A stretch of 64,000 nt of DNA from the human T2T-CHM13v2.0 reference genome, Homo sapiens (GCF_009914755.1 NC_060925.1); one strand, 5' to 3'; positions 14,385 to 20,300 are shown, numbered from the stretch's first letter. Made by a program: numbers and translations. Notes: generated by a model not told the origin, from the sequence alone.

Positions 14385-17300
14385 TCAGCCCCGGTGGTGG
14401 TGGTGGTGGCTATGGCTGTGCCCCTCCCTGGGCCCCGCAGCTCTTGGGCTCTGTGAGTGCTTGTCCTTCTTCCCTGACCTGTGGGGAGGAAGAGGCCTTT
14501 AGGGGACAATACCATGCAATGAAAACGGGTTCCCCAAGGAGAGAGGACCCTGCTCCTCCCAATGAAGCTGACTTGAGCAGGCACCGCCAAGCATATGTGG
14601 GAAAAACCTGGTCTCCCAGGATAAAGGCTCCAGTCGGGGAGACAGGAAGATGGGGATCTCCCTCGTCCCCTGGGCCATGCAGGTAGAGGTAGGGCAGGGC
14701 AACTCAGGAGAAAGAATCCCCCTGCCCAAAAGGGGACTGCTCAGGACCACTCTGGGGTGGGCACAGGCAGCTTCCTACCCTCAAGGGAAGAAAGGAAGCG
14801 GACCTGAATGCCTTCTCTAAGGGAAGCCAGCTGGGGACCAAAAGTAAGGATACTCAAACTAATGATCCTTGCTCTTCACATCCTCCCGACTGCCTCTGTC
14901 CCACCCGACCCAACTCCCCCACAGCTGCCCACCTCTTCTTCAGTGCTTTGTCTCCAAAGAAGTGGCTGAAGATGAAGTCCTCAAAGTCATCTACTTCATC
15001 ATCATCACCTGTCTGTTGCACAGCCACCTCCTCCAAGCTGTCCTCCAGGGCATCCACAAAATCCCGGAAGCGGAGGCGGTCATGACGGAAGATGCCATCC
15101 TCACCAAAGAAAGCAGGTGAGAGGGGTAGCTCCTTGGTCAGCTGCCCAGCCCAGGGCAGCCGTGCCAAGTATGTTCTTAGCAGAGAGGCCAGCTCCTGTT
15201 GCCGCACTGGGGCTAGCTCTGTGCCAAAGAAAGTCAGGCCCTCCTGCCGGGCACACTCGTCCACACCTGAGCAGCCCTGGGGTGCCCGGTACTTGGGCCT
15301 CAACAGCTCTGCCCAGGATGGCAGGGGGTCATGGCTGTCCTTAGTCCCTTCCCTCCACCGAGGTTGCTTCTGCTTTTCTCCAGAGGAGTGGAAGCTACCA
15401 CTTTTCCTTGGGGGTTCCTTCGGGCCCTGTCGCTTGCCCTCCTTCTTGCTCCCCGACTCCTCCACCCTTGGCCTGCCCTCCTTCCACCTTCCTGCTGGCT
15501 CCCTGTCCTCCTGACCTCCCCAGTTCTTCTTCCTTTCCCGGCCAGATTCTTCCTTCTTATGTTTCCAGTGCTCAGCCTTCCGGTCTCTCTGCCCATCCCA
15601 CCACTTTTCCTTTCCACTCCACTCCCTAGAATTCTGGAAGTGGGACTTCTGGTGCCAGGCCTTTGAGGCATTGGCAGAGACCCCAGGGTCCTGGCCCCAG
15701 TTCTCCAGGCCCTGCAGTTTCTGGGCCAATCTGTGGCCCAGCTCAGCCAAGCCAGCATGAGCTGGGTCCCCGCGGCTGGCATCCTGCAAGCTCCTCTCCA
15801 GATCCTGCTGTACAGACCCCAGCAGCCGTCGCTGCCTCTCTAACTCTTGCCTTAATGCCTGTGCCTCAGCCTCCAGCTGTTCCTTCTGCTTCAGGAAGCT
15901 GAGTTCTGGCTCCTGCTCCCTGGGGCCTTGCTCCCTGATGGCCTTGTCACCCTGTGGGCCTCTACCCCCACTGAGGCACACCCCATCTGGGCCCCGGACA
16001 CAGTCGGCCTCCAGCCCCTGGAGCCGGGCCCGCAGCTGCTGCAGCTCTGACTCCAGAGCCCGCTGGAAGGCTTCGCCCTGCTGCAGAGCCCCCCGGAGCT
16101 GGGCATTCTCCTCCTCTAGCCCTTTGGGCTGGTGCATCAGGCTCTGAAGCTCTTCCTTTTGGGCCTAGAATATGGTTTGGGACAAAGGAAGTCACAAAGA
16201 GTTCTTGTCAGGATAGCCCCAATGCCTTCTACCCCAATTCCATTCTATTATAGTGGGCAGGTGGCCTGAGCCCGTTTTACAGCCTGGAACACCCAGAGGA
16301 TTTGGTTTTCATCCTCCACCCCATCTCCATCATGAATGAGACACAGGGATCCCCAAATTCCATCCTGAGCCTCGGCATCTACATCTTTATATAAGCACAC
16401 ACTTCCTAGATTCACCTAAGGATAGCCAATGTGTGGCTCTCACAGTCTTATTTCCTGGAACAGTGTTAACTGATCATGGCACCTGGCATGTTCTTTAAAT
16501 CCTTTTCCACACAGTGCTCCAGGCAGACCACACCAATCAATCACAGGTGATACCATGTATGTTTCATGTACCATGTGGAACAGGTATGCCAGCCCTGGCC
16601 CAAACCTTAGCACAAGGGATGTGAACCAAGAACTGGGAAGACGCCCTGACTATAGTGGGAGAGGGGAGGGTCAGGATGTGTGGGTAAATAGGAAACATTC
16701 CTTTTGGGGGAGGATGCTAGGACAGACGCCTGGCCTAGGTGGGTTACCCTAGCCCAGCCCCTCCTGCCTGTGCCCACCTGCAGCTGGGCCTGCAGCAGCC
16801 GGATGTCCTGGTTCTCCTTGGCCAGCTTGTCCAGCAGAAGACCCATGTTTTGCAGGCTGGGGACACTGTCAGGAGGCACTGGGGCCTGCAGCTGTTCCCT
16901 TAGCCCATCCTGAGGGCAGAAGAGCCTGTTATGCCATGCTACCCCACAGCCCAGGTTCTCCCCAGCCAGGCCCCACCTGCCTCTGGAGACATTCACACAT
17001 ACCTGCCTGTCCCCCACAGCTTCCAGCACCTCGGGGTCTGGGAGGACCTGCCGCTCCACTTCCTCCATGGGCCCTGTGGGAAAGGGAAACCCTGAAACTG
17101 GTCCTGAGGCACACAGAGCCCATTCTCCCCACACCTTCCCATTCACACAGCCACCACTCCTGCTCAGGACCCACCCTGTGGCTGAGCGGTTTGGTGAGAT
17201 AAAGGGCCAAGGGGCACCCTGAACAGCTGACAAGGCCACTAACTGAGAAATAAATGTGAGCCCCCAGCACCCCTACTCCTGACCCACAGAACCAGAGAAC

Positions 17301-20300
17301 ACATACAACTCCCCAGCACAAGACAGGCTCCTCCCTACTCACCAGTCTCAGACTCTGAGAGGCCACCTAAGGACAGAGACAGAGGAGTCTGATGAGGCCC
17401 TCGGGGAGGGGTGATGTGAGGTAAGGTGAGAACATGGCAGGAAGGCAGGCAGGCATGGAAGCCCAAAGCCCCAGCCTCAGAGGTACCACTCACCTGAGAA
17501 GAGGAGGACCCCCAGGCCAAGCAGAACCAGGGCCCCAAGGAGGCACATGTTGAGGGAGATGCCCAGCTCCCCGCCTGCACCCTCACCCCCAGCCTGGTTC
17601 TCCACAGCCAGGGGCACCATGGGCTGAGGTGGGCCGGCCTCCCGGCCCCGCCGTCTCCGCAGACCCTCCATGTCCACGTCGGTGTCATCGTCACTGCTGG
17701 AGCAGCGGCCCTCCTCCCTGATCCAAGCTAGGGGAAAGGACAGGGACAGGGCAGTGAGGTGACTGGAGAGATGGGGAGACACAGGGAGAGAGGGGAATCA
17801 GAGGAAGGCACAGGGAGGGAGGTCGTCAGCCCTGACCCCAGAGAGGGGCACATGAAGACCTTGCCCACTTGCCCACTTCTGCCTGGGCATTGATGACTGT
17901 CCCTGCCCAGTCTGGAGGCAGGAGACCAGTGCTGTCAATCTACGAGCTATAAAAGCCATTTTCATCCTGAAAGCATCCTCCTTCCTCAGTGTGCGCTGTG
18001 CATCAAACTTCTGCAGCTATTACCACCCTCCTGGGTTGCCTCCAAACTCTCTGGCCACTCCTTCCCATTCTCCCTCCCTGGCTCTTCCCTGATCCTAAAG
18101 TCAGTGGTCTCCCTGGCACCATTTCAGGTTCTCTGCTCTTCTCACTGTACACATAGTCACAATTCTCTGACCCACACCACTGACACCCCCCTTCAGCAAT
18201 GAGTCCTTAGTGTGTAACTCCTCACTTGGCCTCCCAGAGCTCCAAGCCTGTATGTCTGACTGCCTGCTGGCCACTCCCTCTGGGACCAAACATTCAACAC
18301 ACTGCTCTGCAAACTGGTTCTTTTCTGGTGTTTCCCCAATTCAGGGGAAGGCACTGCTTCCACCATCTAGCTAACCTAAGCCCTCCCTCTCCACCTCACA
18401 TCCAGACAGTTTCACAGTTCTACACTTAAACATCTTGACAGTCCACCCCTGTTCACAACCCACACTGTACCTGCCTTAGTTCAGGTCTGCATCTTCTTTC
18501 TTTTTTTTTTAATATTTATTTATTTTTATTTATTTTTATTTTTTGAGACAGGGTCTGGCTCTGTCGTCCAGGCTGGAGTGCAGTGGCACGATCACAACTC
18601 ACTGTAACCTCCACCTCCCAGGCTCAAGCGATCCTCCCACCTCAGCCTCCTGAGTAGCTGAGACTATAGGCATGCATCATTACACCCGGCTAATTTGTGT
18701 GTGTGTGTGTGTATTTTTTTGTAAAGACGGGGTTTTGCCATGTTTCCCAGGCTGGTCTCAAACTCCTGAGCTCAAGTGATCCACCTGCCTGGAACACCCA
18801 GAGGATTTGGTTTTCATCCTCCACCCCATCTCCATCATGAATGAGACACAGGGATCCCCAAATTCCATCCTGAGCCTCGGCATCTACATCTTTATATAAG
18901 CACACACTTCCTAGATTCACCTAAGGATAGCCAATGTGTGGCTCTCACAGTCTTGTTTCCACCTCCCATACCTGGAACAGTGTTAACTGATCATGGCACC
19001 TGGCATGTTCTTTAAATCCTTTTCCACACAGTGCTCCAGGCAGACCACACCAATCAATCACAGGTGATACCATGTATGTTTCATGTACCATGTGGAACAG
19101 GTATGCCAGCCCTGGCCCAAACCTTAGCACAAGGGATGTGAACCAAGAACTGGGAAGACGCCCTGACTATAGTGGGAGAGGGGAGGGTCAGGATGTGTGG
19201 GTAAATAGGAAACATTCCTTTTGGGGGAGGATGCTAGGACAGACGCCTGGCCTAGGTGGGTTACCCTAGCCCAGCCCCTCCTGCCTGTGCCTCCCAAAGT
19301 GTGAGGATTACAGGTGTGAGCCACCACACCCAGCCTATTTTTATTTTTATTTATTTTATTTTATTTTATTTTATTTTATTTATTTTTATTTTTTGAGGCA
19401 GAGTCTACCTCTGTAACCCAGGCTGGAGTGCAGTGGCACAATCTTGGCTCACTGCAACCTCCGCCTCCCAGGTTCAAGCGATTCTCCTGCCTCAGCTTCC
19501 CAGGTAGCTGGGAAGTAGCTGGGACTACAGGCGTGCACCACCACACCGAGCTAATTTTTGTATTTTTAATAGAGACGGGGTTTCACCATGTTGCCCAGGC
19601 TGGTCTCAAACTTCTGACCTCAGGTGATCCACCCACCTTGGCCTCTCAAAGTGCTGGGACTACAGGCGTGAGCCACTGCACCCTGCCGCCTATTTTTATT
19701 TCCTTTAGAGACAGGGTCTCCCTCTGTTGCCCAGGCTAGAGTGAAGTGGGATGACCATGGCTCACTGCAGTCTTGAATTCCTGGGCTCAAGCAATCCTCC
19801 TACCTCAGCCTCCCAAAGTGCTGGGATTATAGGCACGAGCCACCATGCCTGGCCCAGGTCTGCATCATCTTTGCCTGACCACTGCAGTTGCCTCCTAAAT
19901 GGCCCCCAGGCCCTCCATCCTGTCACTCAACAGGGACCAATTCCTACACTCCTCTGCCACAAGCCTGGAACAGAGCTCCTTAGCACAAGACAGGTGGTCC
20001 CCACTCCTTTGCTGATGCTGCAGCCTTGGCCTAAAACATTCTCTTTTCCCTGCCCTACGTACCAAAAGCCTACTCTGTGCTCAGGGCTCCACTCAAATGT
20101 CACCTCTCACTGTCCCAGCCTCTCCCTTGCCCTCAACCAGTCCCCTGACTGAATGGCCTCTCCTTCCTTTGGGAGTACCTTAATTACAGTTCTGTACCAC
20201 TCTTAGGTCTGATATGCACCTTGGCTCAGTCTGATCTGCCGCTTACATAGGCGGTAACCAACCATCTTCCCTCTGCCCAGGCCCAGGGCCAGCACAAGGA

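What the first reader, a model, noticed from the sequence alone, without database searches (positions are those of the whole stretch)
16282..19291. ~0.5 kb of PBXIP1 intron copied into the middle of a nearby Alu with microhomology junctions (locally templated insertion)
Seen: 18787-19291 (505 nt) duplicates 16282-16774 (493 nt) in the same orientation, differing only by one A/G and a 12-nt indel. It splits an antisense Alu at CCACCTGCCT^CCTCCCAAAGTG, replacing about 2 Alu bases. The left junction shares GCCT and the right shares GCC with the donor. There is no TSD and no poly-A, so it is not an L1-mediated retroposition or a tandem duplication. Inference: a break-repair scar (microhomology-mediated template switching or templated sequence insertion) that is recent or homogenised by gene conversion.
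Basis: partly seen in the sequence, partly recalled or inferred. Interest (0 to 1): 0.8.

Follow-up and report, generated by a model that had tools for sequence, protein, structure and literature searches.

The report
Intron piece copied into nearby Alu
About 0.5 kb of one PBXIP1 intron was copied, recently and almost without error, into an Alu repeat 2.5 kb away in another intron of the same gene; this is a scar of error-prone DNA repair or replication, a known kind of event, and probably harmless.

Summary
Window 16282-16774 (493 nt of PBXIP1 intron 9) recurs at 18787-19291 (505 nt, intron 5) in the same orientation. 492 of 493 aligned bases are identical and there is one 12-nt gap. These are the only two copies in the genome. 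The copy splits an antisense Alu and replaces exactly 2 Alu bases. The junctions share GCCT and GCC. There is no target-site duplication, no poly(A) and no L1 cleavage site.

New here:
- The donor's last 15 nt match the Alu target 12 of 15, in register. This is the only such site in PBXIP1, and 0 of 2000 shuffled introns hold one.
- The donor ends 3 nt from the 5' splice site of intron 9.
- Both differences cluster beside the second copy of the only 9-mer repeated in the donor. The first copy of that 9-mer is the left edge of the duplicated segment.

Best reading (0.6): a recent DNA-templated template switch of the MMBIR/FoSTeS type, guided back into the Alu by this imperfect match (homeology). 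Main rival (0.2): repair templated by intron RNA cut at the 5' splice site. Ape and population data could not be reached. It is a new member of a known kind, of modest interest.

The parts
16282..16774 (.). Donor: 493 of the 613 nt of PBXIP1 intron 9 (intron = 16165-16777; the gene is on the minus strand). It stops 3 nt short of the 5' splice site and 117 nt short of the 3' splice site.
   Evidence: exon table supplied with the finding
18787..19291 (.). Inserted copy, 505 nt, in PBXIP1 intron 5, in the same orientation as the donor.
18500..18790 (-). 3' part of the interrupted antisense Alu: poly-T tail, right arm and most of the left arm.
   Evidence: Rfam SRP/Alu-type matches on the minus strand
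19289..19335 (-). 5'-terminal 47 nt of the same Alu.
18787..18790 (.). Left junction microhomology GCCT, shared by the Alu and donor 16282-16285.
19277..19291 (.). Right junction. The donor-derived 15-mer (= 16760-16774) matches the Alu target 15-mer (18781-18790 + 2 lost nt + 19289-19291) at 12 of 15 positions, in register. The last 3 nt (GCC) are the exact microhomology.
   Evidence: the only site with at least 12/13 defined matches in PBXIP1; 0 of 2000 shuffles of intron 9 hold one
18955..18972 (.). Cluster holding the only differences: G18955 (A16450 in the donor) and 12 extra nt at 18961-18972. It lies directly left of the second CCTGGAACA.
16454..16462 (.). Second copy of CCTGGAACA, the only 9-mer repeated within the donor. 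The first copy (16283-16291) is the left edge of the duplicated segment.
16778..17727 (-). PBXIP1 exons 9, 8, 7 and 6 (461 coding nt, not a multiple of 3), now bracketed by the two near-identical direct repeats.
   Evidence: exon table supplied with the finding

Best explanation
This is a single, recent germline mutational event in which a growing DNA strand switched templates, of the MMBIR / FoSTeS / multi-invasion SDSA type. All mechanistic steps below are inferred from the scar; none is shown directly.

1. A 3' end that had reached ...CCACCTGCCT in the antisense Alu of PBXIP1 intron 5 left its template. The cause would be a stalled or collapsed fork, or a break at about 18790.
2. It annealed by 4 nt (GCCT) to the complementary strand of intron 9, 2.5 kb away.
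3. It copied about 489 nt of that intron.
4. When its new 3' end read CCTCCTGCCTGTGCC, it re-annealed to the intact Alu template. That template has 12 of 15 matching bases in exactly that register.
5. Synthesis went on, leaving a 498-nt loop that became fixed as an insertion replacing 2 Alu bases.

The cluster of 12 extra nt plus one substitution is either a scar of an abortive extra switch in the same event or a later small deletion in the donor.

The insertion has no evident function. It leaves 493-nt direct repeats, identical apart from that cluster, around exons 6-9.
For: - Direct, nearly perfect duplication with only two copies in the genome.
- The Alu is split with exactly 2 nt replaced, against 12 of 12 intact Alus of the window.
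- Junction microhomologies are 4 and 3 nt. Chance of at least 4 is 0.016 and of at least 3 is 0.051 under a blunt-join model.
- The donor's distal end coincides, in register, with the only 15-mer in the 12-kb gene that matches the Alu target at 12 or more of 13 defined positions. Window-wide there are 11 such sites: 8 lie in Alus, 1 (8174) was not classified, and the other 2 are the donor and its copy. 0 of 2000 shuffles of intron 9 hold one. This is expected if the strand returned by annealing to a template that still held the 10 nt left of the breakpoint. That means an intact sister or original template, not a resected second DSB end.
- No TSD, poly(A) or T-rich nick site. No inverted repeats. 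No known RNA family inside the copied segment.
- Recency: 0-1 independent substitutions in 493 nt and all 3 CpGs kept. With an assumed 0.5e-9 per site per year, the point estimate is 0-2 Myr and the upper 95% limits are 7.5-11 Myr.
- Literature: Alus are proposed to mediate template switching in MMBIR (PMC6071635, passages seen). Insertions lacking TSD and poly(A) but showing microhomology are described as DSB-repair insertions (PMC5110952, text read).
Against: - Nothing shows that the template was DNA rather than RNA. The donor edge lies 3 nt from a 5' splice site, which the DNA model must treat as a coincidence of about 1-2%.
- The polarity of synthesis is inferred only from the imperfect 15-nt match. 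With the opposite polarity, that match would drive the first jump and would require trimming of mismatched bases.
- The 12-nt + 1-nt cluster is not fully explained. The abortive-capture idea predicts 7 extra nt, not 12. Candidate templates (11-mers at 18610 and 20541) are at chance level for a 64-kb window.
- The age rests on one haplotype and an assumed rate. Gene conversion cannot be excluded without outgroups.
Confidence: 0.6

Rival explanations
1. RNA-templated repair. The broken Alu end (...GCCT-3', plus sense) annealed to PBXIP1 intron-9 RNA, either as a lariat or as an intermediate already cut at the 5' splice site. A polymerase with reverse-transcriptase activity extended it to near the RNA's 5' end. 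The run-off cDNA end then annealed to the Alu through the 12/15 match.
For: - The copy lies wholly within one intron and ends 3 nt from its 5' splice site (last shared base 16774, exon edge 16778). Only 1.2-1.5% of positions in the gene lie that close to an exon edge.
- The polarity fits. The gene is on the minus strand, so its RNA can template the plus-sense strand that grows from the left Alu end towards the RNA's 5' end.
- The nascent transcript of the same gene is physically at the locus.
- Literature: templated insertions at DSBs are enriched for transcribed sequence and reduced by RT inhibitors (PMC5110952, text read). Transcript RNA can template DSB repair in human cells, with whole-intron deletion as its scar (PMC12065846, abstract and outline only).
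Against: - The imperfect 15-nt match alone is enough to explain where copying stopped, so the splice-site proximity adds little.
- The last 3 intron bases are missing, and there is no read-through across a branch point.
- The single substitution is not of the A-to-I type on the sense transcript.
- About 490 nt were copied with no scattered errors.
- One case cannot establish this mechanism.
Confidence: 0.2
2. Capture of a free DNA fragment. A roughly 0.5-kb piece of intron 9 DNA, for example an over-replicated or excised single-stranded fragment, was joined into a two-ended DSB in the Alu by microhomology-mediated end joining.
For: - The junction features (microhomology, 2-nt loss, no TSD or poly(A)) are those of end joining.
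- Capture of DNA at DSBs is described in the sources cited in PMC5110952 (text read).
Against: - The in-register 12/15 match includes 10 nt that lie on the other side of the break. A resected right-hand end would not carry them, so plain end joining does not use or predict this match.
- The donor is intact, so an extra copy of the fragment must first have been made.
Confidence: 0.1
3. An old insertion, shared with other primates, whose two copies have been kept nearly identical by gene conversion.
For: Direct repeats 2.5 kb apart can convert each other. The upper 95% age limit of 7.5-11 Myr already reaches the human-chimpanzee split. No outgroup was available.
Against: - Identity is 100% up to the last base at both junctions, where conversion tracts would usually leave diverged edges.
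- The 3 CpGs are intact in both copies, and the differences are confined to one 18-nt cluster.
- The host Alu is at most about 90% identical to any other Alu of the window.
Confidence: 0.05
4. Assembly artefact: a mis-join in the T2T-CHM13 sequence.
For: None from the sequence.
Against: - The copies are distinguishable by the 12-nt + 1-nt cluster, and both junctions lie in readable sequence.
- 2.5 kb is far shorter than the long reads used for such assemblies (general knowledge, not tested).
- From memory only: the GRCh38 span of PBXIP1 is about 12.04 kb against 12.02 kb here, which would mean the insertion is in that assembly too.
Confidence: 0.02

Closest known systems
Replicative template switching (FoSTeS / MMBIR), including Alu-associated template switches
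   Same: Microhomology at both junctions. The template lies nearby on the same chromosome. The strand returns to the original template. There may be an extra small switch and a nearby point change. An Alu is involved (PMC6071635, passages seen).
   Different: Described cases are mostly disease CNVs of kilobases to megabases, or Alu-Alu joins. Here only 0.5 kb of unique intron was inserted into a single Alu, and the return was guided by a chance 12/15 resemblance between unique DNA and the Alu.
Class 2 templated sequence insertions / TSIPs (Onozawa and Aplan; PMC5110952, text read)
   Same: The donor is intact. The insert is a few hundred nt. There is no TSD, poly(A) signal or tract, or L1 site. 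The junctions show microhomology and a microdeletion. The donor is transcribed and intronic.
   Different: TSIPs were defined from junctions between non-homologous chromosomes, that is, distant donors. Here the donor is 2.5 kb away in the same gene. Polymorphism is unknown, and RNA origin is not shown.
L1-mediated retroposition of non-L1 RNA (class 1 TSIP, processed pseudogene-like)
   Same: A copy of transcribed sequence inserted elsewhere.
   Different: No TSD, no poly(A), no T-rich cleavage site. The insert is unspliced intronic sequence.
RNA-templated DSB repair with whole-intron deletion as its scar (PMC12065846, abstract only)
   Same: A repair event in a transcribed gene whose boundary coincides with a splice site.
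   Different: That scar is the loss of an intron, templated by spliced mRNA. Here there would be a gain of intron sequence, templated by the excised or cleaved intron. No such case was found in the searches run.
Segmental duplication and NAHR substrates
   Same: Two near-identical direct repeats that could mediate deletion or duplication of the exons between them.
   Different: 493 nt is below the 1-kb convention for segmental duplications (recalled). The repeats are a product of the event, not its cause.

Membership tests
Microhomology-mediated templated insertion by template switching (FoSTeS/MMBIR-type) | The inserted sequence is a copy of another locus that stays intact | tested here: met
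   Both copies are present and are the only 2 in the genome
Microhomology-mediated templated insertion by template switching (FoSTeS/MMBIR-type) | Microhomology at each junction beyond chance | tested here: met
   GCCT and GCC; chance 0.016 and 0.051; a 12/15 in-register match at the return junction
Microhomology-mediated templated insertion by template switching (FoSTeS/MMBIR-type) | The template lies close by | tested here: met
   Start-to-start distance 2505-2517 nt
Microhomology-mediated templated insertion by template switching (FoSTeS/MMBIR-type) | Extra complexity or point changes produced by error-prone synthesis in the same event | tested here: inconclusive
   One 18-nt cluster (12 nt + 1 substitution) sits at the second CCTGGAACA. 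Its direction of change cannot be polarised without an outgroup, and candidate templates are at chance level.
Microhomology-mediated templated insertion by template switching (FoSTeS/MMBIR-type) | DNA (not RNA) template and replication or BIR machinery | not testable with these tools
   Needs experiments or a genome-wide survey
Class 2 TSIP | No TSD, no poly(A) signal or tract, no L1 target site; NHEJ-like junctions | tested here: met
Class 2 TSIP | Donor in a distant region (screens used junctions of non-homologous chromosomes) | tested here: not met
   The donor is 2.5 kb away in the same gene; criterion from PMC5110952
Class 2 TSIP | Polymorphic presence/absence among humans | not testable with these tools
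   Only one human assembly is held. Stray copies were sought in two other collections with 0 hits.
L1-mediated retroposition (class 1 TSIP / retrocopy) | Target-site duplication of 5 nt or more | tested here: not met
   The 10-nt look-alike at the right end of the insert is donor sequence (16760-16769), not duplicated target
L1-mediated retroposition (class 1 TSIP / retrocopy) | Poly(A) tail and T-rich nick site | tested here: not met
Transposable element / repeat family | Multiple genomic copies, terminal repeats | tested here: not met
   2 copies in the genome; 0 inverted repeats of 30 nt or more
Tandem duplication | Copies adjacent | tested here: not met
   2012 nt, including 4 exons, lie between them
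Retroposed small RNA (snoRNA or miRNA host segment) | A known RNA family inside the copied segment | tested here: not met
   All 15 Rfam matches with E up to 1 in 16100-19900 are SRP/Alu-type families in the Alu parts. Two SRP matches overlap the edges of the insert. None lies in 16100-18542.

The most novel reading that the evidence does not exclude
The insertion is a germline scar of repair templated by intron RNA. An excised or 5'-cleaved PBXIP1 intron-9 RNA, still at its own locus, was reverse-transcribed from a broken Alu end up to the RNA's 5' end and sealed in by a 12/15 match to the Alu. This would be the counterpart, by gain, of the whole-intron deletions ascribed to mRNA-templated repair. 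It would mean that spliced-out introns can be written back into the human germline without L1 endonuclease.
Probability: 0.18. Interest if true: 0.7.

Novelty: new member of a known kind. Interest (0 to 1): 0.35.

Why it matters
It is a clean, base-resolved natural example of a locally templated insertion in the human germline. Three details are useful for people who study how structural variants form:
- The strand returned through a 15-nt imperfect match rather than bare microhomology. This argues for re-annealing to an intact template.
- The donor boundary abuts a 5' splice site, which gives a testable lead for RNA-templated repair.
- A small difference cluster sits at a repeated 9-mer and may record an abortive intermediate.

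In practice, the two 493-nt near-identical direct repeats bracket PBXIP1 exons 6-9 (461 nt). Unequal recombination between them would give a 2.5-kb frameshifting deletion or duplication. Short reads from one copy can also mis-map to the other. Otherwise it is most likely a neutral intronic change.

Tried and rejected
- **Outgroup or second-haplotype evidence:** no primate or other human assembly is reachable. The own genome 'has no relatives here'. As a long shot I scanned genome contigs and viral contigs for stray human or primate DNA with a 30-nt donor string. Both gave 0 hits.
- **Templates for the 12 extra nt:**
  - Exact matches of 9 nt or more were sought in the window. The best were 11-mers at 18610 (the same Alu, and two other Alus) and at 20541.
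  - By my estimate such matches are expected about 0.2 times per 64-kb window, so I rejected them as evidence.
  - The 18-mer spanning the extra bases is unique in the genome.
- **Known RNA genes in the copied segment:** none.
- **Mobile-element readings** (L1-mediated, DNA transposon, repeat family, tandem duplication): rejected on anatomy.
- **Literature on this locus:**
  - 'PBXIP1' + intron + duplication + Alu gave 0 papers.
  - 'PBXIP1' + human-specific + insertion gave 0 papers.
  - These searches cover full text only, not supplementary tables, where structural-variant lists would be.
  - The primary TSIP survey (PMC4419790) is not held.
- **Not pursued:** I did not build an Alu consensus or assign a subfamily, and I did not test for recombination-hotspot motifs.
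- **Alu core hotspot:** the right junction (19289) abuts the conserved Alu core region said to be involved in rearrangements. Its existence is noted in a passage of PMC1142316, but the core's exact position is recalled and was not tested here.
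Full report
**Observation**

The window holds two collinear direct-repeat blocks, 16282-16455 vs 18787-18960 (99%) and 16454-16753 vs 18971-19270 (100%). No inverted repeat of 30 nt or more lies in 15500-20500. A gapped alignment joins the blocks into 16282-16774 (493 nt) vs 18787-19291 (505 nt), with 492 identities in 505 columns and 12 gap columns. That is one substitution (A16450 / G18955) and one 12-nt indel.

A search of the whole 3.1-Gb assembly with the 493 nt finds these two places and no other. 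In a self-comparison of the window, 316 off-diagonal HSPs are 200 nt or longer, mostly Alus. This pair scores 97.4% with gaps counted, and the next best scores 90.8%. The duplication is therefore real, unique and far above the background of repeats.

**Setting**

By the exon table supplied with the finding, PBXIP1 is on the minus strand.
- The donor lies in intron 9 (16165-16777, 613 nt). It covers all of the intron except 117 nt at the 3' splice-site side and 3 nt (CAC on the plus strand) at the 5' splice-site side.
- The copy lies in intron 5.

The copy interrupts an antisense Alu. The Alu's poly-T tail starts near 18500 and its 5' end is at 19335.

I used the Alus of the window itself as the reference for an uninterrupted element.
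- 17 alignments of the left flank reach the junction, and 31 alignments of the right flank start at it.
- Of the 17 pairings within 600 nt, one is the subject itself (498 nt between the flanks) and 4 are cross-pairings of neighbouring Alus (200-590 nt).
- All 12 true intact Alus have exactly 2 nt (CG x5, CA x4, TG x3) between ...GCCT and GCCTCCC....

So the insertion replaced 2 Alu bases, 47 nt from the Alu's 5' end rather than in its middle.

The bases GCCT at the left junction and GCC at the right junction are common to Alu and donor. Under a simple blunt-join model, the chance of at least 4 nt of microhomology is 0.016 and of at least 3 nt is 0.051. There is no poly(A) or poly(T) at either end of the insert, no duplicated target and no T-rich nick site. 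No Rfam family lies inside the copied segment: all 15 matches at E up to 1 in 16100-19900 are SRP/Alu-type families in the Alu parts.

**New point 1: an in-register imperfect match at the return junction**

The last 15 nt of the donor (16760-16774, CCTCCTGCCTGTGCC) resemble the Alu 15-mer that spans the insertion point (CCACCTGCCT, two lost bases, GCC). 12 of 15 positions match, in exactly the register of the junction.

Searching the window on both strands for at least 12 of the 13 defined positions gives 11 sites. Eight are the same position in other Alus, one (8174) I did not classify, and the other two are the donor end and its copy. Within the 12 kb of PBXIP1 the donor end and its copy are the only ones. 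None of 2000 shuffles of intron 9 contains such a site.

The point at which copying stopped was therefore not arbitrary. The new 3' end could pair with the Alu over 15 nt. Ten of those 15 nt lie to the left of the breakpoint and are retained on the left side of the insert. A resected right-hand DSB end would not carry them.

The inference is that the strand re-annealed to an intact copy of the Alu, either the original template at a stalled fork or the sister chromatid after a one-ended break. This is what FoSTeS/MMBIR or multi-invasion SDSA models propose. It fits less well with simple ligation of a free fragment.

The polarity (a plus-sense strand growing left to right) is inferred from this match. 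With the opposite polarity the match would have guided the first jump, and about 12 mismatch-containing bases would have had to be trimmed.

**New point 2: the splice-site edge**

The last shared base (16774) is 4 nt from the exon-9 edge (16778). Only 1.2% of positions in the gene lie within 3 nt of one of the 20 internal exon edges, and 1.5% within 4 nt.

The gene's RNA is complementary to the plus-sense strand. A left Alu end could therefore have been extended on intron-9 RNA towards that RNA's 5' end, running off at the 5' splice-site cut.

Templated insertions at DSBs have been linked to transcribed donors and reverse transcription (PMC5110952, text read). Transcript-templated DSB repair in human cells has been reported, with whole-intron deletions as its scar (PMC12065846, abstract and outline only).

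I keep this as the main rival (about 0.2) rather than the best reading, for these reasons:
- The 15-nt match already explains the stop point.
- The last 3 intron bases are absent.
- One case cannot carry such a claim.

**New point 3: the difference cluster**

The substitution and the 12 extra bases lie within 18 nt of each other. They sit directly left of CCTGGAACA (16454 / 18971). This is the only 9-mer repeated within the donor, and its other copy (16283) is the left edge of the duplicated segment. Of 491 positions tested, only this one shares 6 nt or more of prefix with the left edge.

With the extra bases, the copy reads TCCACCT-CCCATA-CCTGGAACA. This resembles the left junction TCCACCT-G-CCTGGAACA.

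One reading is that the Alu end was first engaged at the second CCTGGAACA, either as an abortive capture or as a shorter first insertion of about 318 nt that was later extended. The cluster would then be the scar. That reading predicts 7 extra bases, but 12 are seen, so it explains only part.

The other reading is a 12-nt deletion between CC...CC plus a nearby G>A in the donor after the copy was made.

Candidate templates for the 12 nt were the 11-mers at 18610 in the same Alu and at 20541. By my estimate these are at the level expected by chance in 64 kb. The 18-mer across the extra bases is unique in the genome. This remains unexplained and needs an ape intron 9 to polarise.

**Age**

With 0 substitutions (if the cluster is one event) or 1 substitution in 493 nt, and an assumed rate of 0.5e-9 per site per year (recalled), the point estimates are 0-2 Myr. 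The upper 95% limits are 7.5-11 Myr. All three CpGs are intact in both copies, and identity is perfect up to the last base at both junctions. This favours recency over homogenisation by gene conversion. The host Alu is at most about 90% identical to any other Alu in the window, so the insertion is much younger than the Alu.

From memory only, the GRCh38 span of PBXIP1 (about 12.04 kb) is close to the 12.02 kb here. That would mean the insertion is not private to this assembly. I could not check this.

**Comparison with known kinds**

The event works like a FoSTeS/MMBIR-type template switch and looks like a class 2 templated sequence insertion.
- It meets the class 2 junction criteria.
- It fails the 'distant donor' criterion under which TSIPs were ascertained, namely junctions of non-homologous chromosomes.
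- It fails every defining feature of L1-mediated retroposition, of a transposable element and of a tandem duplication.

I found nothing in print on this locus. Two full-text searches gave 0 papers. Supplementary structural-variant tables were not searchable. The primary TSIP survey is not held.

**Consequences**

The insertion is intronic and has no evident function. It does create direct repeats of 493 nt around exons 6-9 (132+71+24+234 = 461 nt, remainder 2 on division by 3). Unequal recombination between the repeats would produce a frameshifting 2.5-kb deletion or a duplication.

**Verdict**

This is a new member of a known kind, of modest interest (0.35). It carries one bolder reading that remains open, intron-RNA templating at about 0.18, which a genome-wide survey could test.

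Noticed in passing
window 18481-18498 and 19846-19863: The whole block of three head-to-tail antisense Alus (18500-19845: the interrupted Alu, a full Alu at about 19336-19687, and a short 158-nt Alu-like unit at 19688-19845) is flanked by one 18-nt direct repeat, CAGGTCTGCATC[T/A]TCTTT. This looks like the target-site duplication of the first element, with later Alus inserted into its tail.
   Followed up: partly
window 19706-19853 (-): The short Alu-like unit scores 75.6 bits against Rfam Metazoa_SRP, above that family's gathering score of 70. It is an Alu-type repeat, not a 7SL gene, so it is a likely false positive for automatic annotation.
   Followed up: no
window 19963-19973: A third GCCTGGAACA(G) lies 118 nt beyond the Alu block, in addition to the copies at 16282 and 18787 (CCTGGAACA occurs 5 times in 64 kb). 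This is probably chance, but it is the same word that marks the left junction and the indel site.
   Followed up: no
window 51596-51763 vs 55576-55745: The only other pair in the window with at least 93% identity over 100 nt or more is an inverted 170-nt match at 94.7%. Both lie in stretches masked as repeats, so they are presumably two young Alus.
   Followed up: no
window 18697-18713: A (TG)n microsatellite has grown in the middle A-rich linker of the interrupted Alu.
   Followed up: no
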